Virus record (IMG/VR): IMGVR_UViG_2778261083_000005
Length of the DNA: 36,199 bases
Source of the DNA: a virus
Taxonomy: Duplodnaviria; Heunggongvirae; Uroviricota; Caudoviricetes
Strand: one strand, 5' to 3'
Each line of letters begins with the position of its first letter. The stretch's first letter is position 1. A program made the position numbers and the translations under genes. This document shows positions 10,575 through 34,774 of this stretch, in pieces. The notes under the pieces were generated by a model. It was not told where the DNA came from. It did not search any database and saw only the letters and a program-made list of their open reading frames with translations.

Positions 10575-11447
10575 ATGGAACAGAGAAAACTATATGCTTA
10601 CTTAAATTTAAACAATCCAATTGTTGCCTGGGAGGTTGCAATAGGAAGAATTGAATCAATCTGTTATAAAAGTGAGTTTGGAGTATCTATTTGGTTCTAC
10701 AATCTAGTAAGAAAATACTTATCAGATAATCACAATGAAAAATTACAAAATGAGTTAGCTCTTGAAAAGGTACGCTCAGACAATTTCAGAGATAAAGTTT
10801 CCCGCCTAACCGGAATATATCTATTCAAAACAAAAGAAATGGCTGAAATAGCAATTGACCGTTGGGGTTTAAATCAAAACTATAAAAACACTATTGCAGA
10901 AATTGATTTTCATGGTTTGAACTTTACAGAGGTGGACTCAGAGTGGATCACTGATTATCTCGGCTCTCCGCTTGAGCAAAATGCGCCCTGGATGCACAAC
11001 TATTGGTCTGGAGTAACTCGCGGGGAAAATCCATTAACCGAAGTTTTGGCCAGTGGCATTGGATATATCAACGATAAAAAAATCAGAAGCATGGCTATCA
11101 AAAAACTATATGAAAAATGGGCTACTTCATCTTTGTTATTTAATGCAGCGATTGCCGGTTTTTCTACTGGAGAAATGGATCAGATATGTCGTGTCAAACC
11201 AGCGATACTACGTGAAGATGATGGGACCCTATCTGGAGAAATTTTTATTGACATGAAAGAATTCAGTCAAAATCAGACAAAAATAGTAGCCGCTTTAAAG
11301 AAAATGTATGACAACGGATATGAGCCTCCTATTGTTGTACCGAATGACCAAAATGCTGCCTTTGCATTACCGGACCTTAAAGATATGTTTTTTAGTACTA
11401 AAAACGAAGTAACTAAAAACCTGTTCAACTTATTACACGCTAGTTAA
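10575..11447 (+). CDS. Hypothetical protein, 290 aa, AT-rich cargo gene at the Z/fun hotspot position
   Basis: Clean ORF with AGGA SD 8 nt upstream of ATG at 10575; opposite strand to the flanking tail operon; markedly AT-rich by eye; followed by a hairpin; no family recognised. Confidence 0.7.
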   Translation: MEQRKLYAYLNLNNPIVAWEVAIGRIESICYKSEFGVSIWFYNLVRKYLSDNHNEKLQNELALEKVRSDNFRDKVSRLTGIYLFKTKEMAEIAIDRWGLNQNYKNTIAEIDFHGLNFTEVDSEWITDYLGSPLEQNAPWMHNYWSGVTRGENPLTEVLASGIGYINDKKIRSMAIKKLYEKWATSSLLFNAAIAGFSTGEMDQICRVKPAILREDDGTLSGEIFIDMKEFSQNQTKIVAALKKMYDNGYEPPIVVPNDQNAAFALPDLKDMFFSTKNEVTKNLFNLLHAS

Positions 11448-22294: not shown

Positions 22295-24061
22295 ATGAAC
22301 ACCACACTGACACCCGCAGATCTCGATCCCCGTCGGCAGGCCATGCTGCTGTACTTTCAGGGATACCGCGTAGCCCGCATTGCTGAAATGCTGGGCGAGA
22401 AAGTTGCAACCGTTCACAGCTGGAAAAAACGCGACAAGTGGGGTGACTATGGGCCGCTGGATCAGATGCAGCTCACCACTGCCGCACGCTACTGCCAGCT
22501 CATTATGAAGGAGCACAAAGAAGGGAAAGATTTCAAAGAGATTGACCTGCTGGCGCGCCAGTCTGAGCGCCACGCGCGGATCGGCAAGTTTAACAATGGC
22601 GGCAACGAAGCCGACTTAAACCCTAACGTCGCCAACCGCAACAAAGGCCCGCGCCGTCAGCCGGAAAAAAATGTCTTCACCGATGAACAGATTGAGAAGC
22701 TGGAAGAAATCTTCCATTCCTCCATGTTCAACTACCAGCGCCACTGGTGGGAAGCCGGAAAAACCAACCGCATCCGCAACCTGCTGAAGTCACGCCAGAT
22801 CGGCGCGACCTTTTACTTTGCCCGTGAAGCCCTGATTGACGCCCTGCTTACCGGACGTAACCAGATTTTCCTTTCCGCCAGTAAGGCACAGGCCCACGTC
22901 TTTAAACAGTACATCATCGACTTCGCCAAAGAAGTGGAGGTGGAGCTGAAAGGCGATCCGATGGTGCTTCCCAACGGGGCCACGCTTTACTTCCTCGGCA
23001 CCAATGCCCGCACGGCCCAGAGTTACCACGGCAACCTGTATCTGGATGAATATTTCTGGATACCGAAATTCCAGGAACTGCGCAAAGTGGCTTCCGGTAT
23101 GGCTATTCACAAAAAATGGCGACAAACCTATTTTTCCACGCCATCCAGCCTGACACACAGTGCTTATCCGTTCTGGTCCGGTGCGCTGTTTAACCGTGGG
23201 CGCAACAAAGCCGATAAGGTGGACATCGACCTGTCCCACAACAATCTGGCCCCCGGCCTGCTGTGCGCAGACGGGCAATACCGCCAGATAGTCACCGTGG
23301 AAGATGCGGTGCGCGGCGGCTGTAACCTGTTCGACCTCGACCAGCTACGCATGGAGTACAGCCCGGACGAATATCAGAACCTGTTGATGTGCGAGTTCGT
23401 GGACGATCTCGCGTCCGTGTTCCCGCTCAGCGAACTGCAGGCGTGCATGGTGGACAGCTGGGAAGTCTGGACCGACTTTCATGCACTGGCCCTGCGCCCG
23501 TTTGGCTGGCGCGAGGTGTGGATCGGTTATGACCCGGCAAAAGGTACGCAGAACGGCGACAGCGCCGGATGCGTGGTGGTGGCACCGCCAGCCGTGCCAG
23601 GCGGTAAGTTTCGCATTCTTGAGCGTCACCAGTGGCGCGGGATGGACTTCCGCGCCCAGGCTGATGCAATCAAAAAACTGACCGAGCAGTACAACGTGAC
23701 CTATATCGGCATCGACTCGACGGGTGTCGGTCACGGGGTTTATGAGAACGTGAAAGCGTTTTTTCCAGCCGTCCGGGAGTTTGTCTACAACCCCAACGTT
23801 AAAAACGCCCTGGTACTCAAGGCCTACGACATTATCAGCCACCGCCGTCTGGAGTTTGACGCCGGGCACACCGACATTGCGCAGTCATTCATGGCAATCC
23901 GTCGCGCCACCACCGCCAGCGGCAACCGCCCGACCTATGAAGCCAGCCGCAGCGAAGAAGCCAGCCACGCCGATCTGGCCTGGGCAACGATGCACGCATT
24001 GTTTAACGAACCGCTGCAGGGCGAATCCGCCAATACCAGCAATATTGTGGAGATTTTTTGA
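22295..24061 (+). CDS. P: Terminase large subunit gpP
   Basis: 588 aa; ATG at 22295; ATPase/nuclease terminase-like; stop overlaps the Q start (TGATG). Confidence 0.9.
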   Translation: MNTTLTPADLDPRRQAMLLYFQGYRVARIAEMLGEKVATVHSWKKRDKWGDYGPLDQMQLTTAARYCQLIMKEHKEGKDFKEIDLLARQSERHARIGKFNNGGNEADLNPNVANRNKGPRRQPEKNVFTDEQIEKLEEIFHSSMFNYQRHWWEAGKTNRIRNLLKSRQIGATFYFAREALIDALLTGRNQIFLSASKAQAHVFKQYIIDFAKEVEVELKGDPMVLPNGATLYFLGTNARTAQSYHGNLYLDEYFWIPKFQELRKVASGMAIHKKWRQTYFSTPSSLTHSAYPFWSGALFNRGRNKADKVDIDLSHNNLAPGLLCADGQYRQIVTVEDAVRGGCNLFDLDQLRMEYSPDEYQNLLMCEFVDDLASVFPLSELQACMVDSWEVWTDFHALALRPFGWREVWIGYDPAKGTQNGDSAGCVVVAPPAVPGGKFRILERHQWRGMDFRAQADAIKKLTEQYNVTYIGIDSTGVGHGVYENVKAFFPAVREFVYNPNVKNALVLKAYDIISHRRLEFDAGHTDIAQSFMAIRRATTASGNRPTYEASRSEEASHADLAWATMHALFNEPLQGESANTSNIVEIF

Positions 24062-25095
24062 TGGGAAAGAGTAAGAAGAACCGCGCTGCGGCGACGAAAC
24101 AGATCCAGCATAAAAGCCAGACTTCAGCCGAAGCATTCAGCTTCGGTGATCCCGTTCCTGTTCTGGACCGCCGCGAACTGCTGGACTATGTGGAATGCGT
24201 ACAGATGGATCGTTGGTATGAGCCGCCTGTGAGTTTCGACGGACTGGCGCGAACCTTCCGCGCCGCCGTGCATCACAGCTCACCGATTGCAGTGAAGTGC
24301 AACATTCTGACCAGCACCTACATCCCTCACCCGCTGCTCAGCCAGCAGGCTTTTTCGCGTTTTGTACAGGACTATCTGGTTTTTGGTAACGCCTACCTGG
24401 AGAAACGCACGAACCGCTTCGGTGAAGTTATCGCCCTTGAGCCCGCACTGGCAAAATACACCCGACGCGGGTTAGACCTGGATACCTACTGGTTTGTGCA
24501 ATACGGCATGACTACGCAGCCGTATCAGTTCACGCAAGGCAACATTTTTCATCTGATGGAACCGGACATCAACCAGGAGATCTACGGCCTGCCCGGTTAT
24601 CTTTCTGCCATTCCGTCAGCTCTGCTCAACGAGTCCGCCACGCTGTTCCGCCGCAAGTATTACATTAACGGCAGTCATGCAGGCTTCATCATGTACATGA
24701 CCGATGCAGCGCAGAACCAGGAGGATGTGAACAACCTCCGCAATGCGATGAAAAGCGCCAAAGGTCCTGGTAACTTCCGTAACCTGTTTATGTACTCGCC
24801 TAACGGTAAAAAGGACGGGCTTCAGATTATCCCGTTGTCAGAAGTGGCGGCGAAGGATGAGTTCCTGAATATCAAGAACGTGAGCCGGGACGACATGATG
24901 GCGGCCCATCGTGTGCCGCCACAAATGATGGGGATAATGCCTAATAATGTCGGGGGGTTTGGGGATGTGGAGAAGGCCAGTCGCGTATTTGTACGTAATG
25001 AATTAACGCCCTTGCAAAAAAGGCTACAAGAGCTGAACGACTGGCTGGGCGAAGAAGTGATTAAATTTACGCCCTATATTCTTTCAGAAGAATAA
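24061..25095 (+). CDS. Q: Portal protein gpQ
   Basis: 344 aa from ATG at 24061 (the ORF-track start at 24058 is TTG); size matches P2 gpQ. Confidence 0.9.
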   Translation: MGKSKKNRAAATKQIQHKSQTSAEAFSFGDPVPVLDRRELLDYVECVQMDRWYEPPVSFDGLARTFRAAVHHSSPIAVKCNILTSTYIPHPLLSQQAFSRFVQDYLVFGNAYLEKRTNRFGEVIALEPALAKYTRRGLDLDTYWFVQYGMTTQPYQFTQGNIFHLMEPDINQEIYGLPGYLSAIPSALLNESATLFRRKYYINGSHAGFIMYMTDAAQNQEDVNNLRNAMKSAKGPGNFRNLFMYSPNGKKDGLQIIPLSEVAAKDEFLNIKNVSRDDMMAAHRVPPQMMGIMPNNVGGFGDVEKASRVFVRNELTPLQKRLQELNDWLGEEVIKFTPYILSEE

Positions 25096-25103
25096 TTCCG
25101 AAC

Positions 25104-25802
25104 TTATTTGTTTCTTCTTTGTTCACGCCTTGTCTTGGCTTCGATAAGGCGTTGAGGTTCAGTGTAAAGCCGTTCTAAAAAAAGATAGGTAAAATCTTCA
25201 AGATCCTCAGCAGCAGCTTTATCCAAAATACCTTCATGCGCTCCATCATTTCCGTCATCTTTAACGCATTCAGCTAGTTCCCTTAAAGCTTCAGGCAGTA
25301 GATGATTATCAAATAACCACTCCATTCTCAACCCTAGGCTTCTCCTTATTTTTTGCGCAGGCCCTTGCTCCCCATCAGGAAGAAGTCCTTTTGTGGCATA
25401 ATCAAGGCAAAGCCTAAACATGGTTGCTGCTGCATTATAACAACCTATAGCCAAACATTTCGCCCCTTCCTCATATGCACTATTGATATGCTCAGGTAAG
25501 AACTCTGGTGGCTCCTCTACTGCTAAGTCTGCCGGTGATATAGGCCTAACAACCTCTGCAACTTCCTTTAAGCCGAATATTCCACTTTCCCAATTATAGC
25601 TATCTAAAGTTTTATTTTTCGTTAAAGGTCTGCAAAGAAACATTGTCGTTTTATGACACTCTCGGCAAACACAATAGACCTCGTACTCGTATGTTTTACC
25701 CCCGCCCAATGCATTGTAAACCCTAGTGCAATTCAGCCCATTAACATCAAACGCTATTTTTTGTGATCCACATCGTGGACAGTCATCCACTAACATAACC
25801 AT
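25104..25802 (-). CDS. Zinc-ribbon protein with C-terminal DUF4145-like (predicted HEPN-type) domain; candidate abortive-infection/defence protein
   Basis: 232 aa; strong GGGAGGAG SD upstream of ATG at 25800-25802; N-terminal CPRC...CVCRECH zinc ribbon; C-terminal ...ALRELAECVKDDGNDGAHEG... resembling the R...GN.gAH motif of DUF4145; convergent with Q across an 8-bp gap. Confidence 0.7.
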   Translation of the reverse strand: MVMLVDDCPRCGSQKIAFDVNGLNCTRVYNALGGGKTYEYEVYCVCRECHKTTMFLCRPLTKNKTLDSYNWESGIFGLKEVAEVVRPISPADLAVEEPPEFLPEHINSAYEEGAKCLAIGCYNAAATMFRLCLDYATKGLLPDGEQGPAQKIRRSLGLRMEWLFDNHLLPEALRELAECVKDDGNDGAHEGILDKAAAEDLEDFTYLFLERLYTEPQRLIEAKTRREQRRNK

Positions 25803-25912
25803 GTCAATTACTCCTCCCTATGAAAAAAATGAGTTGAAAAATTGAATATTCACGACTTAAAAAGCTAGCCTATTTAACACCATAATTTCATTAATTCAAC
25901 CATGAGCGCGCG

Positions 25913-25931
25913 CTCGTATCCCCGCCACGCC
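25913..25931 (-). other. Candidate cos site (cohesive-end sequence)
   Basis: Minus-strand GGCGTGGCGGGGATACGAG matches the GGCG(A/T)GGCGGGGA core of P2/186 cohesive ends as I recall them (13 of 19 to 186); adjacent 12-bp palindrome gagcgcgcgctc at 25904-25915. Confidence 0.45.
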
Positions 25932-26104
25932 TGCCCGCTTTATGTAGCGGTTTTCATGCAGGCGCATGATCTACGCAAAATCCCACCAGTTCTGGCGTGC
26001 CTTAGCAAAAACGATCCGCAAACGATCATGCGATCTCATGCGGCATAGTCATGCACTTACGGGGGAAGTGAAATCCCGTAACCGAATGACCGCTTGAAAA
26101 ACAA

Positions 26105-26151
26105 AACTCTCGTTTTTATAAAGCACAAAGTCCGCTTTGAGCGAAGCGGAC
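26105..26151 (-). terminator. Candidate intrinsic terminator downstream of the KAP NTPase gene
   Basis: Inverted repeat gtccgctt(26130-26137)/aagcggac(26144-26151); on the minus strand it is followed by TTTGTGCTTTATAAAAAC. Confidence 0.4.
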
Positions 26152-26216
26152 GTTAATAATTTTACTGACTATCCCTAGTACTTCTAATAATATTGCCTAT
26201 GTTAATCAACAAAAAG

Positions 26217-28109
26217 TTAATCAGTTCCCTCAGTAAAGAATTTGATTGCGCTAGTTAGTACATAGTCAATAAAAAACTTTACGTGAAAAACCTGAAAGGA
26301 GTTATTGGCTGCGTTTTGAGTGAAATCTACAGCTATCTCTTTTAGGTTAATCAACCAGTTGTATTCTTCGGTCAGTCTGGTTCTAGCATCCCCATCAGAA
26401 TAACGATTCCGCAAGCTAAATGCCAGTTTCCTCATGAGGACTGGGTCAAGTTTCCTATAGCTTTCAATGAAAACTTCAGGAGGAACCAAGTGTAAAAAAG
26501 GCACGTTATGAAGATTTAACTGCCTATTATTAGAATGACTCAATTCAGATACGAACGATAAGTTTCCCCTTTGCAACTCATCGCTGAACTGCAACGCAAA
26601 TTCCGGAATTGATTCATCAAACCGTTTCTTCTTCGCTATCTCAATATGCTCAATAATGAGTTTGAATTCATCGCTATCCCTGTCAAGAAAACCAAAGCCA
26701 CGCCATGCCCTTAATTCGTTATAATGCGTTTGCGCATATTCCTTATGTATATCTTCAGCTCTAAGTCTATTATAATAATTATTTATATTCTGTTTTGTCT
26801 CATTTATGAGATCATGAACATCATCTGTTGTTAGACCTTCTTTCGCCATGTCCAGCAAAATACTCGCGGTCATCAGGAGTTCACCTAAGGAAGTGATCTT
26901 ACCTGAAAATAGATTATCCTTGGCAATGGCGTACTGCTCATTAAGCATAGTTTCATTAAGTTCTCGATAGTTCCACAAATACTCCCATGCTTGGGCATCG
27001 GTGCTTCTAAAAAATCGCGTAATATCCAACTGAGCGAGAAGTTCACTCGTTACCTTTCCATCACAGATTAGCTCCCTCCAGTACGCACCATCCAGTAACT
27101 TCTCGGTTAATACAGGAGATGAATATTTCTCGGCGATCATGTCATACTTAGTTTTGGTACGCTCTTTACCTAAAAACATACCATAATTAACATTGCTGAT
27201 TGAATCGAAATCCTCGTAGTTAAGGTTCCCTCCCCGGTACTCTATCGAGAAAATTAACAACTGCTGGAAAAATACCCTCATAAAATCGTCGTTGCTGACA
27301 TATTTATTTCCCAAAAGGGAAATGATGCGTTGTACATCAAGAAAGAACTGCCTCAAGTGTCTTAGATTATTATATTTCGCCGACACATAGATGTCTTCTA
27401 TGGCCTGCATATCTTCTTTAAATATATTAGCAACGTGTAAACTGCTAATTACGCCCAAAAAAACATTACAAGCACTATGTAAATCTGACGTTACTTCAAA
27501 TGTTTTACCAACAAGCTTTTCTTTTGTTCTCATATATTCGCTGCTAGATTTCTCATCATCATTATTTATTCGCTTTTCTCTATTGATTATTTCTTCTTCA
27601 TTGGCAACCAAGATCGCTTTGTATCCGTTTACTTCTACAAAGTGGTTTATATATCCAAATAAAATTGGTAAATCTATACCAGCTCTCTCGATATCATCAA
27701 AGACCAGCACAAAACCATCTGGTTTTCTACTAAAATCGTTAAGATTAATGGTGGGAACATTGGTATTGACATCAACGTCAGATTTATTATCGCCATTGAG
27801 ATCGATCTTGAAAGTAGCCTTAAGCGTATTTTTTAGTACATTTGCACCAAAGATAAGGGCTTTGTTTGATAGGACAGGATGAAGTTGACGATAGAACTCA
27901 TCTTCAATCTGCTTAATAGAGTTGACGCCATACAAACTCACTTTTAGAAATTTAAACTCTGAATTCTTCTGCTTATATTCTTCAAGAACTTGTTCAATGA
28001 ACCAAGTTTTACCTGATCCCCAAGCACCTTTAAGCATAATGGCGTATTGAGGTTCAGTTGTAAGGCTAAGGTAATATTCTATATAGTCTTTGATGTACGT
28101 ATTGTTCAT
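26217..28109 (-). CDS. KAP-family P-loop NTPase (PifA-like); candidate phage-exclusion protein
   Basis: ATG at 28107-28109 preferred (ORF-track start at 28160 is TTG); Walker A GAWGSGKT and Walker B-like VLVFDDIER in the N-terminal third; long helical C-terminal region; AT-rich; between tum/DinI module and cos. Confidence 0.75.
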   Translation of the reverse strand: MNNTYIKDYIEYYLSLTTEPQYAIMLKGAWGSGKTWFIEQVLEEYKQKNSEFKFLKVSLYGVNSIKQIEDEFYRQLHPVLSNKALIFGANVLKNTLKATFKIDLNGDNKSDVDVNTNVPTINLNDFSRKPDGFVLVFDDIERAGIDLPILFGYINHFVEVNGYKAILVANEEEIINREKRINNDDEKSSSEYMRTKEKLVGKTFEVTSDLHSACNVFLGVISSLHVANIFKEDMQAIEDIYVSAKYNNLRHLRQFFLDVQRIISLLGNKYVSNDDFMRVFFQQLLIFSIEYRGGNLNYEDFDSISNVNYGMFLGKERTKTKYDMIAEKYSSPVLTEKLLDGAYWRELICDGKVTSELLAQLDITRFFRSTDAQAWEYLWNYRELNETMLNEQYAIAKDNLFSGKITSLGELLMTASILLDMAKEGLTTDDVHDLINETKQNINNYYNRLRAEDIHKEYAQTHYNELRAWRGFGFLDRDSDEFKLIIEHIEIAKKKRFDESIPEFALQFSDELQRGNLSFVSELSHSNNRQLNLHNVPFLHLVPPEVFIESYRKLDPVLMRKLAFSLRNRYSDGDARTRLTEEYNWLINLKEIAVDFTQNAANNSFQVFHVKFFIDYVLTSAIKFFTEGTD

Positions 28110-28423
28110 TTTTAGTCCATTTTGATAAAATACATAAACATAGATGGTAAGTAGAGCCAAAGGCCAACTATGGAAAATTCAATCGGTAGTGTACATTGTA
28201 AGGTTATTATTAGTAAATTTTATAGAAATGCCCATAATCTTACAAAATTCAGATTATCCGTTGCGAATTAGTCTGCCATTCGTTAATTAACAAAAGTTAG
28301 CAGAAGAAACGTTTGCATCTTGCACAAAGCAGACGATCATTTATCAAAATGACCTTACACCTTATTTCACTCGTTGCCCAAACTAGCCCCCATCAGAATG
28401 AATCCTCCTGGGGGCAACGTTTC

Positions 28424-28657
28424 TTAATGCAGCCAGCTGTCGTCTTCCCACACCTTCTGCATAATTTTCATCACTTGTTTTCTTTCTTCGTCCAGTTGCA
28501 GTCCGGTCAGTTCCACACCGTTAGAGCTACCTTTGCGGATACGAATTACCGTTTTGGGATACAGGGGGCGCAGATTGCGGTAAAGCTCGGATTCAAGGGC
28601 GTCCAGTGTAGACTGGCTAATCTTCTGCTCTTTATCGATCATTATTTCAATGCGCAT
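28424..28657 (-). CDS. DinI-family protein (SOS-inducible; Tum/DinI-like)
   Basis: 77 aa from ATG at 28655-28657 with GAGGTGA SD; MRIEIMIDK...LDALESEL...KQVMKIMQKVWEDDSWL aligns by eye with E. coli DinI. Confidence 0.75.
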   Translation of the reverse strand: MRIEIMIDKEQKISQSTLDALESELYRNLRPLYPKTVIRIRKGSSNGVELTGLQLDEERKQVMKIMQKVWEDDSWLH

Positions 28658-28667
28658 AAAAGTCACC

Positions 28668-28856
28668 TCAGCTGATGACATCCATTGAGCGGTTGTATTC
28701 GTGGCTTCTGATTTTTGCCATGAGTTCATCAGTCAATTCAGAAACCCACTGCAGAGCCAGCCCCTTCTCTTCATCACTACACTCACTAGCCGCTACAAGC
28801 TTAAGAAAAAAATCAATGCGCTGGAGCTTCAAAGACTCCAAAAAATAGTCCTGCAT
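28668..28856 (-). CDS. Small hypothetical protein (62 aa), first gene of the LexA-controlled operon; possible antirepressor component
   Basis: ATG at 28854-28856 with AGGAGG SD 6 nt upstream; stop immediately precedes the DinI-like RBS; downstream of the LexA box. Confidence 0.55.
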   Translation of the reverse strand: MQDYFLESLKLQRIDFFLKLVAASECSDEEKGLALQWVSELTDELMAKIRSHEYNRSMDVIS

Positions 28857-28897
28857 CTTTCCTCCTATGACACCACACGCAATGCTGTACGTATAAC

Positions 28898-28917
28898 CAC
28901 TGTTTATATTTACAGTA
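28898..28917 (-). promoter_or_regulatory. LexA box (SOS operator) overlapping the -10 of the promoter for the small ORF/DinI-like operon
   Basis: Minus-strand TACTGTAAATATAAACAGTG = CTGT-N8-ACAG with AT-rich spacer; TTTACA (-35-like) and TATACT (-10-like) around it. Confidence 0.6.
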
Positions 28918-29009
28918 TATAATAATCTTACTGATGTAAAACGTTTTTTTACGTTCATCAGCCTGATATGCCTGGTATTATTAAGAGCACGAATTGTTAA
29001 CCCGCGTAA

Positions 29010-31424
29010 TTAATACAGATCCCGCCACTTATCATCTTCCTGCAAACGCTGGTTCCGATAGAAGATACGCAGGCCTGCTCCTGACGGAATACTGCCACCG
29101 CGAAGGAGTAAATCGACCTCTTTCTCGCTGCCATCAAATCCTCTGGACTTCAGTTCATAGACGAGCTGCTGTCGCTGATGATCTGTAATTCGCTGTTTGT
29201 AGTCTCTACGCCGTTTCGGTTTCACCAGGCGTAACCTTGCAGCCAGTTCCCGGCGCTCCTTTTTGTTCATACTGTGCAGGTAATCGTGCAACTCCTTGTC
29301 ATCCATGCGGGTAAAGTCCGTTCTGGGGTCCCCATCAGCTGATTTATCTTTCTCCTGTTGGTTCAAATTTTCAGCAAGGGGACAGTTATTGCCACGAGTC
29401 CAAGGGGCGCAAGCGCCCTGGTCGGCTGCCGCCTCCTGAACGTCAACGGCTTTACGAACCATTTTCCACTTCACTGCATGAGTGCAGATCTTGCCCTCTG
29501 CAATGGGTGACCAGATGCCATAAATACGAATGCCGTGATCGCCATAGGCGGTCGGCTCTTCGTTGATTTCATAAGCGGTTCTGATGAGGTGATATTTACG
29601 GGGAACCAGTACGCCGCCCTGCTTCATGATGTAGGTGGCAAAACAACCAGCATCAGCAGCAGCCAGAATGGCATCAAGACGCGGGTTATCCAGTACCGGC
29701 GCACCTGCTTTTTTGTCACCCTGTTGCCTTGCCGCCTGACCAGCCAGCAAGCGAAGTTCACGGTAAGCCTGACGCCCCGGAATACCAAAGAAGCGGAATT
29801 GCTGAACACGATGCAGAGACGCCCAGGCATTCACGTATTCAGCGTTATCACGCAGAGATTTACCCGTTTCCTTGCTGATCTCGCCAGCCAGACCACGACC
29901 GTCAATGTTCTTACTGATATATTTCGCGATGTAGCTTGTCGGCGTTCCTTTGCGCGGGTTAATCAACTCAGACTTAAAGCGCGGCCCAGTGTTATTGCCC
30001 AGCTCCTCGCGGTCTTCACGGATGGCAAACTTACGCAGTAATGCAGTGATGGCACGGCGGTCTTTTTTGCGCATGAAACACAACAGGTGCCAGTGAACTG
30101 TGCCATCATGATGCGGCTCAGCCACCCGCACGCCATACCAGCGCAACCCGGCTTTGTGCATCGCCTTACGAAATGCAGCAAACATGCCGACCAGATAATC
30201 GCTGCTTTGTCTTACCGTCGCGTTTGTCCAGGTCGGGTTTGGTCTGCCGTTATTTAGCGTGGAATGGAAACGCGACGGACAGGTGATAGTGTAGAAAACG
30301 GCGCAGTCACCGCGCATTTCCGCGATAAGCTCCAGACCTTTAACACAGGCCATCATCTCATTGCGGCGATGCGCAGGGTTGCTGCTGCTGGCGTTTACCA
30401 CATCCTCCATGTCCAGCGTGTCGCCGTCTTCGTTCACCAGTTCATGAGAACGGAAAAACTCCAGCGACTTACGGCGCTGCTCACGTTTATGCATCACGGC
30501 TTCATAGCTGACATAAGGAGATGCTTTTTTGCTGACCAGGCAAACAGCGCGCAACTGCTCTTCCCGCCATTCGCAACGCATCTTCCATAATTTCCGATAC
30601 CACCAGTCGGCGCACAACATACGCGCCAGCGAACCCGGAATGAGTTCATAGGGCACGGGTTTACGGCGGTTTCTTTTCCGACGGAGTTGCTCAAACGCAG
30701 GTGGGATGACATCCAGACGCAGGGTTTCCGCTGCCACCTTTTCCCATGTCTTGCGGATTTCTTCTGGCTTAACGTCATCGGTGGCATACAAATCACCACA
30801 AGCTGCATCAAGGCACATACTCATATGCGCAGCTACCAGGGTGGACAGGCGTTTCACCTGATCCTGACTCATTTCAGGCAGGATCAGCAGGCCGTCCAGC
30901 CCTTCATGGCTTGCCATAAAGCGAAAAGATGCAGATAGCTGACTGTCGCGTACATGCTCCAGTCGTTCCAGACATGGCTTAATCGTCTCACGTAAATAGC
31001 GGGAATAAGCCTTTGGCCTGCCCAGGCTGCTGAAGTATTCAATACGTTGCATCAGCGGCTTGCTGATATGGGAAGGCTGGGCGTTGACGTCCGCCAGAAT
31101 GACCATGTCTGAATTAAAACGCTGCTGCTCATGCGCCAGCTTTGCCCGGCTAATGAGCTTATCCTGCTCCATTTCGCGCTGGACAGGATCACGTGATTCA
31201 TTAAAGAAATAACGCTCCCAGACCTGATCACTCACTGCCTCGCGGCGCAACTGTTCCTGCTCGTTATCGGCAGCGTACAGAGTGATCAGGTTTGAAAGCG
31301 TAGAAACCGGCGCAACTTCCGCCGGGTCCAGATAAGGGTTAATGGCCTTTTTCGGGCTGTTCCATGAGAATGCTGCGGCAGCCTCGTTAAAGCCGCAGCA
31401 GTTGTTCATATCGGCATGACTCAT
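29010..31424 (-). CDS. A: Replication initiation protein gpA (rolling-circle nickase)
   Basis: 804 aa; conserved [15 protein letters not shown] and [12 protein letters not shown] motifs shared with P2 gpA; ATG overlaps the dam stop. Confidence 0.9.
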
Positions 31425-32278
31425 GCACGTACTCCGTACACGGCAGAACTATCCACGCCACGCGAATAATCAAATCCCACCCAGCAGCGCGGCCCGGAAA
31501 CAGCAATGATTTCTGTTGCTGATTTACCCTCGCCAGCTGCCACACCGATGCTGCGTTTTGCCTTGATGTAGTGGTGAGTAAAATTGCGATACAGCGAACG
31601 GATCAGGGATGTGTCACTGTTAGAAACAATGACCGGATGTCCTTCTGATGACCGATGTTCAAGAACAGATGCCAGGTGATACTGGTCATCTTCAGTGAAG
31701 CCGTCAGTGTGATAGCCGGAAAACGTACCGTCATACGGCGGATCGCAATACACCACATCCCCCGCCTTCAACATCGCCAGCGTTTCATCAAAGCTGGCGC
31801 AGATAAACGTTGCTCGCTGGGCCTTTTCTGCAAATGCGCGAATTTCTTTTTCAGGGAAATACGGATTTTTATAATTACCGTAGGGAATGTTGAAATGCCC
31901 GCTCTTGTTATAGCGACATAAACCACGGTAACCGTGACGATTGAGATACAGGAAATATACCGCTTTCATGAAATCAGTAATTTCAGTGGAGTAATTAAAC
32001 TCCTGCCTTATGTTGTAATAAGCCACCTCCCTGTTTGCGATCTCAAATAAAACTCTGGCGCGAGATATAAACGATTCACAATCAGCGGCAACCTTTTTAT
32101 AGAGGTTGATTAAATCAGGATTAATATCCGCAACCAGATAGCTGGGGTAATCCGTCTCCATCATCACAGCACAGGAACCCGCGAAAGGTTCAACCAGTCG
32201 CGGGCCAGCAGGAAGGTGTTTTTTCAGTTCGGACATAATGGCGGTTTTATTTCCCGCCCATTTCAGGATGGTGCTCAT
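31421..32278 (-). CDS. dam: DNA N6-adenine methyltransferase (Dam family)
   Basis: 285 aa from ATG at 32276-32278 ([11 protein letters not shown]...); FAGSCAV AdoMet motif and DPPY catalytic motif ([10 protein letters not shown]). Confidence 0.85.
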
Positions 32279-32502
32279 ACAGCACCTCCGTTGTAATGTT
32301 TGCCTTTCAGCTCTGCGATTTCCTGGCAGGTAATGCAAAGCTGCACTCCCGGAATGGCGCGGCGTCGTGCTGGCGGAATTGGCGCTTCACATTCAATACA
32401 AAGCACGCGAGACACGCCCGGTGTTTTGGCACGGGCAGCACGAATATGGCGCTGGCGTTCTTCTTCAACGCGCTGCTGTACGAGATCCATTGCATCAGCC
32501 AT
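32275..32502 (-). CDS. TraR/DksA-family C4 zinc-finger protein
   Basis: 75 aa; CIECEAPIP...CITCQ four-cysteine motif; ATG overlaps the upstream stop. Confidence 0.7.
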   Translation of the reverse strand: MADAMDLVQQRVEEERQRHIRAARAKTPGVSRVLCIECEAPIPPARRRAIPGVQLCITCQEIAELKGKHYNGGAV

Positions 32503-34079: not shown

Positions 34080-34204
34080 GATGCAACATTCCTCGTTTAA
34101 TGATGATTAATCAGGACGAATACGGATCGTTTGTATTTTGTGAACACCATAAACATACGATCGCACTATGAAATCGTCAAGATAAAAGTTCACTTGGAGT
34201 GACC
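34080..34204. promoter_or_regulatory. Immunity switch region (lytic and lysogenic promoters plus operators) between apl and cI
   Basis: 125-bp intergenic region between divergent apl and cI; contains inverted repeats (aatac-N8-gtatt; tgtgaac ... gttcac) as candidate operators. Confidence 0.4.
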
Positions 34205-34774
34205 ATGAATTTGGAGAAAGGCGGACGAGGCGCTATAGAGCGCATGGTAGAAGCTTATGGATTCAAAACTCGACAGGCGTTGTGCGATCATTTAGGAATC
34301 TCTAAAAGTACACTCGCTACACGCTACATGCGTGACTCATTCCCAGCAGAATGGGTAATCCAGTGCGCCCTTGAAACGGGCACCTCGCTTAATTGGCTCA
34401 CAACTGGACATGGTTCAAAGCAAACTTCAGGTAATACAAATACGATGGAAGTTGCTAAATATGTATTATCTGATGGTGCCTTGCGTGAAGACGGTTTTTA
34501 TATTTTTGATAAGGGATTTCTACCCTCTACGTTTAAAAAACCTTTTGTCATCACAGATAACAATTCTGAATTTATTTGTGATAAAGAATTTGATGATATA
34601 CGTGATGGTAAATGGGTAATAAGTATTGATGGCGAAATAACAATCCGCGACATTACTCGTTTACCCGGTGGAAGAATCTTCGTTGAAGGTGGAAACAGAT
34701 CCTTCGAGTGCAAGATAGAAGATGTTGAAATAATTGGAAAAATTATAAGTTTAACAATTAAGTACGTTAGGTAA
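34205..34774 (+). CDS. cI: CI-like immunity repressor (186 CI family)
   Basis: 189 aa from ATG at 34205 with GGAG SD; ...EAYGF...CALETGTSLNWLTTGHG... aligns by eye with 186 CI. Confidence 0.8.
   Translation: MNLEKGGRGAIERMVEAYGFKTRQALCDHLGISKSTLATRYMRDSFPAEWVIQCALETGTSLNWLTTGHGSKQTSGNTNTMEVAKYVLSDGALREDGFYIFDKGFLPSTFKKPFVITDNNSEFICDKEFDDIRDGKWVISIDGEITIRDITRLPGGRIFVEGGNRSFECKIEDVEIIGKIISLTIKYVR

What the first reader, a model, noticed from the sequence alone, without database searches (positions are those of the whole stretch)
26217..28109. PifA-like KAP-family P-loop NTPase in the cos-proximal hotspot
This ~630-aa AT-rich cargo gene has a Walker A box (GAWGSGKT) and a Walker B-like hhhhDD motif (VLVFDDIER), the KAP NTPase signature. 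The family is named in part after PifA, the F-plasmid protein that aborts T7 infection. The gene lies where P2 carries old/tin, has its own terminator, and is flanked by the SOS-regulated tum/DinI module. That makes it a strong candidate for a phage-exclusion ATPase, possibly membrane-associated like PifA.
Basis: partly seen in the sequence, partly recalled or inferred. Interest (0 to 1): 0.7.

Follow-up and report, generated by a model that had tools for sequence, protein, structure and literature searches.

The report
Prophage KAP ATPase, candidate phage defence
A P2/186-like E. coli prophage carries, in its known variable "defence hotspot" next to cos, a stand-alone 630-residue KAP-family ATPase. 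The gene is already catalogued as an untested anti-phage candidate (PADLOC PDC-S49), so it is a plausible but unsurprising defence gene and not a close relative of PifA.

Summary
An intact 630-aa ORF lies at 26217-28109 on the minus strand. It has 36.9% GC against 50.8% for the window, a Walker A box GAWGSGKT, a Walker B box VLVFDDIER and its own terminator hairpin. It sits between the LexA-box/DinI module and cos of a P2/186-like prophage.

- **Family:** It matches Pfam KAP_NTPase (E 3.8e-22). It matches the PADLOC candidate family PDC-S49 over its full length (E 2.5e-160).
- **Relation to PifA:** Similarity is limited to about 48 residues around the P-loop. The gene is therefore KAP-family, not PifA-family. 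No transmembrane helix is predicted.
- **C-terminal half:** This is an all-alpha, solenoid-like domain with no enzymatic fold. It occurs only in this fixed architecture (658 representative clusters).
- **Distribution:** The gene is solitary and mobile. It is found in P2-like and lambdoid prophages, integrative islands and single-gene insertions. It is under purifying selection and present in 46 of 5426 complete E. coli genomes.
- **Prior record:** Rousset et al. 2022 already listed this gene in P2 hotspots.
- **Experimental precedent:** A remote relative from P4 satellites (Reve) and other single-gene KAP NTPases confer phage resistance.

Best reading: a self-contained, ATP-dependent anti-phage sensor ATPase. 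It is a new member of a known kind, untested, and of moderate interest.

The parts
26217..28109 (-). CDS of the 630-aa KAP-family P-loop NTPase (PADLOC PDC-S49 family); the stop codon is 26217-26219
   Evidence: ORF; Pfam KAP_NTPase E 3.8e-22; PDC-S49 E 2.5e-160 over the full length; PHROG 4740; dN/dS 0.21-0.30 against 92-94% alleles
27315..28109 (-). N-terminal NTPase module, aa 1-265: an ORC/Cdc6/STAND-like AAA+-type core plus helical lid
28005..28028 (-). Walker A box GAWGSGKT (aa 28-35)
   Evidence: W30, G31, G33 and K34 are invariant in 43 homologues
27684..27710 (-). Walker B box VLVFDDIER (aa 134-142)
   Evidence: D138, D139, E141 and R142 are invariant
27744..27875 (-). Conserved insert between Walker A and Walker B (aa 79-122). 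It is non-hydrophobic and carries a DxDxDG-like acidic loop, at the position where other KAP NTPases carry transmembrane helices.
   Evidence: pLDDT below 50 in the model; D103 in 43/43, [ND]105 in 40/43, D107 in 40/43, P119 in 43/43; no hydrophobic window
26220..27314 (-). Family-specific all-alpha C-terminal domain (aa 266-630); presumed sensor or scaffold
26130..26151 (-). Intrinsic terminator hairpin downstream of the gene
   Evidence: dG -12.9 kcal/mol, z -3.3
28217..28245 (-). Possible own sigma-70 promoter (TTGTAA-17-TAAAAT); weak and unverified
   Evidence: the number of promoter-like sites in the region is not above the shuffle expectation
25912..25931 (-). 186-like cos core (GGCGTGGCGGGGA...); it bounds the cargo slot on the downstream side
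   Evidence: Sequence; the Cartapus record annotates a P2-like cos here, and the homology breakpoint falls at about 25906
28424..28657 (-). DinI-family gene (77 aa) upstream of the KAP gene
   Evidence: Pfam DinI E 1.2e-22; RefSeq annotation of the same locus
28900..28915 (.). LexA-box palindrome CTGTTTATATTTACAG upstream of the 62-aa ORF (28668-28856) and DinI
   Evidence: Only match in the window

Best explanation
The gene is a self-contained, single-gene anti-phage (superinfection-exclusion) module carried as variable cargo in the cos-proximal hotspot of a P2/186-like prophage.

**Shown**
- The protein has an N-terminal KAP-family, ORC/Cdc6/STAND-like P-loop NTPase with intact Walker A and Walker B motifs and invariant downstream polar and arginine residues.
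- The C-terminal alpha-solenoid domain is found only in this family.
- No transmembrane helix and no recognisable enzymatic effector domain are present.
- No neighbouring gene is conserved across contexts.
- The gene has its own terminator.
- It belongs over its full length to the PADLOC candidate family PDC-S49.

**Inferred mechanism**
- The lysogen expresses the protein as a soluble NTPase switch.
- The C-terminal helical domain, and possibly the conserved acidic insert loop, recognises a component of an infecting phage.
- Recognition triggers nucleotide-dependent assembly into a ring, probably heptameric as in RdrA and QatA.
- ATP binding and hydrolysis then sequester or remodel a phage protein or phage DNA. 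This blocks replication or maturation of the invader.
- Walker A and Walker B mutants should be inactive.
- Whether the cell survives (direct immunity) or dies (abortive infection) is not decided by the data. I lean towards direct, ATPase-dependent interference, as reported for the E. faecalis KAP protein.
For: - **Family and motifs:**
- **Hotspot location and variability:** the flanks are in 1282 genomes and the gene in 46 of 5426, all chromosomal and all in the same slot where examined.
- **Prior catalogue:** the same slot is listed as a defence hotspot, with KAP_NTPase WP_000552033 among its contents, in PMC9122126 Table S.
- **Independent genomic prediction:** PDC families were defined by embedding in BREX, DISARM and type I RM loci (10.1101/2024.01.29.577857).
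- **Mobile, partner-free contexts:** homologues at about 30-78% identity occur at a lambdoid prophage edge in Serratia, inside a lambdoid prophage in Edwardsiella, in integrase or recombinase islands, and as single-gene insertions.
- **Selection:** dN/dS is 0.21-0.30.
- **Experimental precedent:** EF_KAP and three other single-gene KAP NTPases with unknown C-terminal regions protect E. faecalis. That protection depends on Walker B and is independent of MOI (PMC12632615).
- **Reve:** this 586-aa single-gene KAP-like protein from P4 hotspots protects E. coli from Drexlerviridae. It aligns collinearly with this family's profile (hhalign probability 94.4%, E 8.9e-8, 499 columns).
- **Structural neighbours:** ring-forming immune or initiator ATPases including RdrA, BrxC and NLRs. 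Per, QatA (KAP NTPase plus unknown C-terminal domain) binds DNA and forms a heptameric or octameric complex.
Against: - No experiment exists for this protein or for PDC-S49. PDCs are explicitly 'untested', and no paper mentions PDC-S49 or WP_000552033.
- No effector domain is recognisable, so the killing or blocking step is conjecture.
- Similarity to validated KAP defence proteins is remote. For Reve, most of the score comes from the P-loop.
- Several homologues sit among housekeeping genes rather than in defence islands.
- Oligomerisation and the sensor role of the C-terminal domain are inferred from analogy only.
Confidence: 0.7

Rival explanations
1. PifA-type abortive infection at the membrane. 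The protein associates peripherally with the inner membrane. On sensing specific phage proteins it permeabilises the membrane or shuts down macromolecular synthesis, killing the infected cell.
For: It shares the KAP NTPase domain and an identical Walker A box (GAWGSGKT) with PifA. Like this protein, PifA has no strong hydrophobic segment, so the lack of transmembrane helices does not exclude the model. The conserved insert lies where other KAP proteins carry membrane helices (Tmn description).
Against: Outside about 48 residues at the P-loop there is no detectable similarity to PifA. No amphipathic or hydrophobic membrane segment is predicted. The one mechanistically tested single-gene KAP defence protein did not behave as abortive infection.
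Confidence: 0.15
2. An inter-element competition or other accessory function rather than defence against lytic phages. Examples are exclusion of P4-like satellites, plasmids or other prophages, or a lysogenic-conversion function unrelated to phages.
For: The gene is carried by mobile elements of several kinds. Hotspots of P2 and P4 are arenas of phage-satellite conflict (PMC9122126). Several homologues are not in defence islands.
Against: Independent defence-context prediction (PDC-S49). A remote relative (Reve) and other KAP NTPases protect against lytic phages.
Confidence: 0.1
3. A component of the prophage's own life cycle, such as a replication-initiation, packaging or induction accessory ATPase. 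This is suggested by the ORC/Cdc6/DnaA/TnsC-like fold and the neighbouring gpA, DinI and cos.
For: The best structural matches are initiator and loader ATPases. The gene lies between the replication gene and cos.
Against: It is absent from the great majority of related prophages that share the flanks (46 versus 1282 genomes). It is absent from all 50,697 phage records at more than 33% identity. It also occurs in lambdoid prophages and as a solitary chromosomal gene. It has foreign base composition.
Confidence: 0.03
4. A decaying or non-functional passenger gene.
For: None specific. It is AT-rich cargo without a demonstrated promoter.
Against: The 1893-nt ORF is intact in all 46 genomes. dN/dS is 0.21-0.30. 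Catalytic motifs are invariant across phyla.
Confidence: 0.02

Closest known systems
PADLOC phage defence candidate PDC-S49 (Payne et al., guilt-by-embedding candidates)
   Same: Full-length HMM match (aa 2-623 against profile 5-614 of 624, E 2.5e-160). Single-gene organisation.
   Different: Nothing structural. The family is only a prediction and had not been tested when it was defined. The P2-hotspot context is a different line of evidence from the BREX/DISARM/RM embedding used to define it.
Reve, a single-gene KAP-like system from P4-satellite hotspots (bioRxiv 10.64898/2026.02.27.708500)
   Same: Similar size (586 against 630 aa). N-terminal GxWGxGKT and hhhhDDxER motifs. No second gene. 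Carried in the hotspot of the P2/P4 phage-satellite pair. Collinear profile alignment over 499 columns (probability 94.4%). Reve is experimentally protective against Drexlerviridae.
   Different: Pairwise similarity is significant only for aa 24-72 (33% identity). The C-terminal relationship is weak. Reve sits in P4, not P2. Reve has not been shown to belong to PDC-S49.
EF_KAP and related single-gene KAP NTPases (PMC12632615 / PMC13552941)
   Same: KAP NTPase followed by a roughly 320-aa C-terminal region of unknown fold. Single gene on a mobile element. In EF_KAP, Walker B is required for defence.
   Different: EF_KAP has two N-terminal transmembrane helices and this protein has none. The hosts are Firmicutes.
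PifA of the F plasmid (T7 exclusion)
   Same: Pfam KAP_NTPase domain, identical Walker A box, no strong hydrophobic segment. Carried by a mobile element. Single polypeptide effector.
   Different: Only 48 residues align and the PifA HMM hit is not significant beyond the P-loop. PifA is 741 aa with an unrelated C-terminal part. It lies in a pifC-regulated operon on a plasmid.
RdrA (RADAR), QatA (QatABCD) and Tmn: KAP or KAP-like NTPases of multi-gene or membrane-bound defence systems
   Different: No RdrB or QatBCD partner genes are adjacent. No PADLOC hit to those models at E <= 0.1. Tmn has two transmembrane helices inserted in the NTPase domain and this protein has none.
P2 tin and old (occupants of the same slot in P2)
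   Same: Same genomic slot between gpA and cos. Single-gene exclusion functions of a P2-type prophage (own knowledge; hotspot described in PMC9122126).
   Different: Unrelated proteins. Old is an ABC-ATPase/TOPRIM nuclease and Tin targets the T-even ssDNA-binding protein. No homology was detected (one search shows no Old or Tin hit).

Membership tests
Pfam KAP_NTPase (PF07693) | Profile match above the curated gathering score | tested here: met
   79.3 bits against a cut-off of 20, E 3.8e-22, aa 3-263 covering profile positions 2-290 of 293
Pfam KAP_NTPase (PF07693) | Walker A GxxxxGK[ST] and Walker B hhhhDD motifs | tested here: met
   GAWGSGKT at aa 28-35 and VLVFDD at aa 134-139; both invariant in 43 homologues
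Pfam KAP_NTPase (PF07693) | Transmembrane helices inserted within the P-loop domain (typical of many members, not all; Aravind et al. 2004, own knowledge; Tmn) | tested here: not met
   An insert is present at the right place (aa 79-122) but it is charged and non-hydrophobic. The highest 19-residue Kyte-Doolittle window is 1.47, below 1.6.
PADLOC PDC-S49 | Full-length match to the family HMMs | tested here: met
   PDLC05031 E 2.5e-160, PDLC05029 E 6.9e-153, PDLC05030 E 1e-88
PADLOC PDC-S49 | Single-gene system with no conserved partner | tested here: met
   Neighbours differ in all contexts examined
PADLOC PDC-S49 | Demonstrated anti-phage activity | not testable with these tools
   PDCs are described as untested. 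No paper mentions PDC-S49.
PifA (F-plasmid T7 exclusion protein) | Full-length homology to PifA | tested here: not met
   The PADLOC PifA HMM matches only aa 19-52 at E 0.0028. BLASTP gives 31% identity over 48 aa at E 6e-4 and nothing else.
PifA (F-plasmid T7 exclusion protein) | pifC-pifA operon on an F-like plasmid | tested here: not met
   All 46 E. coli copies are chromosomal and prophage-borne. No pifC-like gene is adjacent. The F locus is shown.
PifA (F-plasmid T7 exclusion protein) | Abortive exclusion of T7 triggered by gp1.2 or gp10 | not testable with these tools
   Requires infection assays
P2-like prophage defence hotspot cargo (Rousset et al. 2022) | Located between the replication gene A / DinI and cos / portal gene Q | tested here: met
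   Gene order gpA, 62-aa ORF, DinI, KAP, cos, (DUF4145), Q, P
P2-like prophage defence hotspot cargo (Rousset et al. 2022) | Variable content between otherwise homologous prophages | tested here: met
   Flanks in 1282 of 5426 genomes and the KAP gene in 46. KAP_NTPase WP_000552033 is listed in the paper's hotspot table and is the NC101 allele.
Reve (P4 hotspot KAP-like system) | Homology over the whole protein | tested here: inconclusive
   hhalign probability 94.4%, E 8.9e-8, 499 collinear columns. However, BLAST and HMM significance is confined to aa 24-72, plus a weak C-terminal motif.
RADAR (RdrA) / QatABCD (QatA) / Tmn | Match to the family HMM and presence of partner genes (RdrB; QatBCD) or inserted transmembrane helices (Tmn) | tested here: not met
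   No PADLOC hit at E <= 0.1 apart from PDC-S49 and PifA. No partner genes. No transmembrane helix. Only fold-level similarity to RdrA.

The most novel reading that the evidence does not exclude
The PDC-S49 family could be a mechanistically new kind of single-protein immunity. It would be a soluble KAP NTPase whose ancestral transmembrane insert has been replaced by a conserved DxDxDG-like acidic, possibly Ca2+/Mg2+-binding, loop. Its private alpha-solenoid C-terminal domain would sense a phage component. The assembled ATPase ring would itself be the effector, for example by clamping or loading onto phage DNA in the manner of ORC/Cdc6/TnsC or by sequestering a phage protein. No nuclease, NADase, protease or pore domain would be involved.
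Probability: 0.2. Interest if true: 0.6.

Novelty: new member of a known kind. Interest (0 to 1): 0.35.

Why it matters
If the gene is confirmed as a defence gene, three things follow.
- It would turn one of PADLOC's 145 untested candidates (PDC-S49) into a validated system.
- It would add a second, P2-borne representative to the emerging class of single-gene KAP NTPase defences (EF_KAP, Reve).
- It would give a tractable E. coli model, present in strains such as NC101, NGF1 and ML35, for asking how a KAP/AAA+-type ATPase with no recognisable effector domain stops a phage.

It also illustrates how the two sides of cos in P2-like prophages assort their cargo independently. The finding is not surprising. 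The hotspot, the domain family and the prediction are all already in the literature and databases.

Tried and rejected
- **Sequence search of solved structures:** a 43-sequence profile against all PDB chains found nothing meaningful (best E 0.54).
- **Foldseek against PDB, full model:** only weak hits (E >= 1e-3) to RdrA, ORC and NLR ATPase domains.
- **tblastn against 50,697 phage records:** only two distant partial hits (<= 33% identity). The gene is not in any deposited phage genome.
- **NCBIfam:** no family.
- **Literature:** searches for 'PDC-S49' and 'WP_000552033' gave no papers. The DefensePredictor supplements are not held. The held PDC supplements do not list PDC-S49.
- **Conserved partner gene:** considered and rejected, because neighbours differ in every context.
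- **C-terminal domain as a swappable effector:** considered and rejected. It occurs only fused to this NTPase, at a fixed position, in 658 representative clusters.
- **Promoter:** the consensus scan gave no more sites than shuffled sequence, so no promoter claim is made.
Full report

Yes. The six-frame scan shows one long ORF at 26217..28160 on the minus strand. The ATG at 28109 gives a 630-aa protein, MNNTYIKDY...TEGTD. All 42 aligned homologues begin at the equivalent position, so 26217-28109 is the right gene model. RefSeq annotates the same 1893-nt CDS in other E. coli genomes.

The gene has 36.9% GC against 50.8% for the window. It lies in a low-GC island at about 25000-29000.

A hairpin at 26151..26130 is followed by TTTGTGCTTT and sits 66 nt after the stop. 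Its dG is -12.9 kcal/mol with a z-score of -3.3 against shuffles. A sigma-70-like site exists upstream (28245..28217). Such sites are no more frequent here than in shuffled sequence, so I make no promoter claim.

**2. Surroundings**

The window is a P2/186-like prophage inserted next to the host genes ybjM and ybjL. On the plus strand it carries terminase P (22295-24061) and portal Q (24058-25095). On the minus strand it carries gpA (29010-31424) preceded by a Dam-type methylase (31421-32338). A 186-type CI repressor and an integrase lie at the right end.

Reading the minus strand downstream of gpA, the order is:
- a LexA-box palindrome at 28900-28915, the only CTGT-N8-ACAG in the window;
- a 62-aa ORF at 28668-28856 (PHROG 698);
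- a 77-aa DinI-family gene at 28424-28657 (Pfam E 1.2e-22);
- a hairpin with a poor U-tract;
- 315 nt of spacer, then the KAP gene and its terminator;
- a 186-like cos core, GGCGTGGCGGGGA..., at about 25912-25931.

On the far side of cos lies a 232-aa DUF4145 gene (25104-25802), followed by Q. So the gene occupies the gpA-to-cos slot where P2 carries tin and old. The SOS/DinI module flanks it on one side only.

**3. Variability of the slot**

The 4.1-kb region finds partial matches in 1282 of 5426 complete E. coli genomes, but only one genome carries the whole arrangement. Homology breaks at window position 25906, which is at cos.
- The left part (DUF4145 plus portal) is 99.7% identical to phage Cartapus.
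- The right part (KAP, DinI, gpA) recurs in other genomes.

The KAP gene alone is in 46 of 5426 genomes, always chromosomal. There are two main allele groups, at >= 99% and 92-95% identity.

In strains NC101 and NRZ14408 the gene sits in the same slot, but the gene across cos differs. It is a hypothetical protein in NC101 and a RES-family NAD+ phosphorylase in NRZ14408. The two sides of cos therefore assort independently, and the KAP gene is a self-contained module.

No deposited phage genome carries it.

**4. What the protein is**

*Family assignment.*
- Pfam assigns residues 3-263 to KAP_NTPase (79 bits, cut-off 20).
- PADLOC gives a full-length match to the three PDC-S49 models (E 2.5e-160).
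- The only other PADLOC hit is PifA, at E 0.0028 over residues 19-52.
- PHROG 4740 (unknown function) matches over the full length.
- NCBIfam has nothing.

*Distribution of homologues.* The big-database search returned 377 homologues. Most are 600-660 aa and cover 93-100% of the query at about 30% identity. They come from Proteobacteria, Bacteroidota, Cyanobacteria and CPR bacteria.

*Invariant residues in a 43-sequence alignment:*
- Walker A: W30, G31, G33, K34;
- Walker B: D138, D139, E141, R142;
- G152, Y153, N155, E159;
- E171, with A169 and N170 nearly invariant (the ANE motif);
- Y192, E197, K198, G201;
- N248, L249, R250, a candidate arginine finger or sensor;
- in the C-terminal half, E290, W375, R569, Y570 and E582.

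*Structure.* An AlphaFold2 model has pLDDT 82.4. It shows an alpha/beta NTPase core plus lid, followed by an all-helical C-terminal half.
- Foldseek ranks RdrA first, but weakly.

*Architecture.* A phmmer scan with residues 266-630 against 1.84 billion representatives found 658 clusters. In these the domain is always at about 260-600 of a roughly 620-aa protein. The architecture is fixed, not modular.

*Membrane question.* The highest 19-residue Kyte-Doolittle window is 1.47, below the usual 1.6 threshold. No transmembrane helix is therefore predicted.

*The insert.* The insert between Walker A and Walker B (aa 79-122) is where Tmn-type KAP proteins carry membrane helices. Here it is conserved, charged and modelled with low confidence. 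It contains D103-x-[ND]-x-D107-[GN]-K-x-D111 in 36 of 43 sequences. This resembles the DxDxDG calcium-binding loop motif. That resemblance is my own recollection and is untested.

**5. Relationship to PifA**

I took PifA from the F plasmid record (NC_002483 42445-44670, downstream of pifC). It is 741 aa and matches Pfam KAP_NTPase at E 3.2e-43. It shares the exact Walker A box GAWGSGKT.

BLASTP aligns only 48 residues around the P-loop (31% identity, E 6e-4) and nothing else. The window protein is therefore a member of the KAP superfamily but not of the PifA family.

PifA also lacks a strongly hydrophobic segment (maximum 1.27). The absence of transmembrane helices thus does not separate the two proteins, and peripheral membrane association cannot be judged by sequence.

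**6. Evidence bearing on function**

(a) *Location.* Rousset et al. 2022 (PMC9122126) defined this slot of P2-like prophages as a hotspot of anti-phage systems. Their supplementary table lists 'hypothetical + KAP_NTPase + hypothetical + DinI' with WP_000552033. I found WP_000552033 to be the NC101 allele of this gene. The main text does not discuss or test it.

(b) *Independent prediction.* PDC families were derived from genes embedded in BREX, DISARM and type I RM loci and are described as '145 untested phage defence candidates'.

(c) *Mobility without a partner.* Homologues occur in several contexts:
- at the integrase edge of a lambdoid prophage in Serratia;
- inside a lambdoid prophage in Edwardsiella;
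- in islands with a serine recombinase or integrase/AlpA/RadC;
- as single-gene insertions between housekeeping genes in Burkholderia, Flavobacterium, Psychrobacter and Methylophilus.

No neighbour is conserved across these contexts.

(d) *Selection.* dN/dS against the 92-94% alleles is 0.21-0.30. Substitutions are spread along the protein, and family-wide conservation is lower in the C-terminal half.

(e) *Experimental precedent in E. faecalis.* Four single-gene KAP NTPases with uncharacterised C-terminal regions protect E. faecalis. For EF_KAP, the one that was tested mechanistically, protection needs Walker B and holds equally at MOI 1 and 10 (PMC12632615, now PMC13552941).

(f) *Experimental precedent in E. 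coli.* 'Reve' is a single-gene KAP-like protein from P4-satellite hotspots. It reduces plaquing of Drexlerviridae by up to about 10^5-10^6-fold. I translated Reve from the paper's Dataset E1. It is 586 aa, with GEWGVGKT and VFIIDDLER motifs and no hydrophobic segment.
- BLAST similarity to the window protein is confined to aa 24-72.
- The family profile aligns collinearly over 499 columns (hhalign probability 94.4%, E 8.9e-8). The alignment includes the C-terminal RY...E..WL motif region.
- Reve is thus a remote relative with probably the same architecture, but not a member of the same family.

(g) *Related soluble KAP-type ATPases.* These form large rings in immune systems. RdrA forms heptamers (PDB titles). 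QatA forms heptamers or octamers and binds DNA.

**7. Most likely mechanism**

*Shown:* an intact, conserved P-loop NTPase of the KAP/ORC-STAND type; a fixed fusion to a private helical domain; a stand-alone gene; mobile-element cargo in a defence hotspot.

*Inferred:*
- The protein is a nucleotide-driven switch.
- Its helical C-terminal domain, perhaps with the acidic insert loop, recognises a phage-derived protein or nucleic acid.
- It then oligomerises and uses ATP to sequester or remodel that target or phage DNA, arresting the infection.

Because no effector domain is recognisable, the terminal step is the weakest link. I give about 0.7 to 'anti-phage defence gene'. Within that, I give roughly equal but slightly greater weight to direct ATPase-dependent interference than to PifA-like abortive infection.

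Expression control is open. The hairpin after DinI has a weak U-tract, so SOS-dependent read-through cannot be excluded.

**8. Novelty and verdict**

The ORF, its KAP annotation ('NTPase KAP' in NCBI, found on 81 contigs), its presence in P2 hotspots and its candidate-defence status (PDC-S49) are all already on record. What is missing is any experiment.

It is best filed as a new, untested member of a known kind, namely single-gene KAP NTPase defence candidates in prophage hotspots.

Interest is moderate (0.35). The gene is a sensible cloning target, and the family's lack of an obvious effector is mechanistically intriguing. A specialist would not be surprised by the finding.

Noticed in passing
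window 25104-25802 (-): A 232-aa protein with an N-terminal CxxC...CxxC zinc-ribbon-like segment and a DUF4145 domain (Pfam E 4.5e-7). It gives a weak PADLOC PD-T7-4 hit (E 1.2e-6) and a full-length PHROG 1305 hit. It lies between cos and the portal gene, on the other side of cos from the KAP gene. DUF4145 genes are also listed in the P2-hotspot table of Rousset et al.. It is probably a second, independent defence candidate.
   Followed up: partly
window ~25906 (cos, 25912-25931): DNA homology to other genomes breaks at cos. The Q-side cargo is DUF4145 here, a RES-family NAD+ phosphorylase in NRZ14408 and a hypothetical protein in NC101. It assorts independently of the A-side cargo (KAP). Only 1 of 5426 genomes has the same pair. 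This suggests that cos, or packaging-related recombination, acts as a shuffling boundary.
   Followed up: partly
window 10575-11447 (+): A 290-aa ORF in a second low-GC island (GC 0.33-0.36), between the tail sheath and tail fibre genes. This corresponds to the P2 Z/fun hotspot position. It has no Pfam or PADLOC hit and only weak PHROG hits of unknown function. It is an unannotated cargo gene worth testing.
   Followed up: partly
window 27744-27875 (-), aa 79-122 of the KAP protein: The insert between Walker A and Walker B is strongly conserved but modelled with pLDDT below 50. It contains D103-x-[ND]-x-D107-[GN]-K-x-D111 in 36 of 43 homologues, reminiscent of DxDxDG calcium-binding loops. It lies where other KAP NTPases have transmembrane helices.
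   Followed up: partly
window 28900-28915: A single perfect LexA-box palindrome (CTGTTTATATTTACAG) lies upstream of a 62-aa ORF (28668-28856, PHROG 698) and the DinI-family gene (28424-28657). Together with the 186-type CI repressor at 34199-34774, this points to an SOS-inducible 186-like prophage.
   Followed up: partly
window 28375-28416 (-): A hairpin after the DinI stop (dG -20.4 kcal/mol, z -2.1) is followed by only a weak U-tract. Read-through from the LexA-controlled promoter into the KAP gene cannot be excluded.
   Followed up: no
window 31421-32338 (-): A Dam-type N6-adenine methyltransferase lies immediately upstream of gpA. It matches PADLOC 'orphan methyltransferase' at E 3e-111. 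It is probably an anti-restriction or self-protection function of the prophage.
   Followed up: no
L001/L002 6794-7693 and L004 10558-11424: In other hosts the KAP homologue sits beside other small cargo genes. In Serratia this is an HNH_2 nuclease at the prophage edge. In Edwardsiella it is a DUF2971 protein. DUF2971 also appears in the P2 hotspot table.
   Followed up: no
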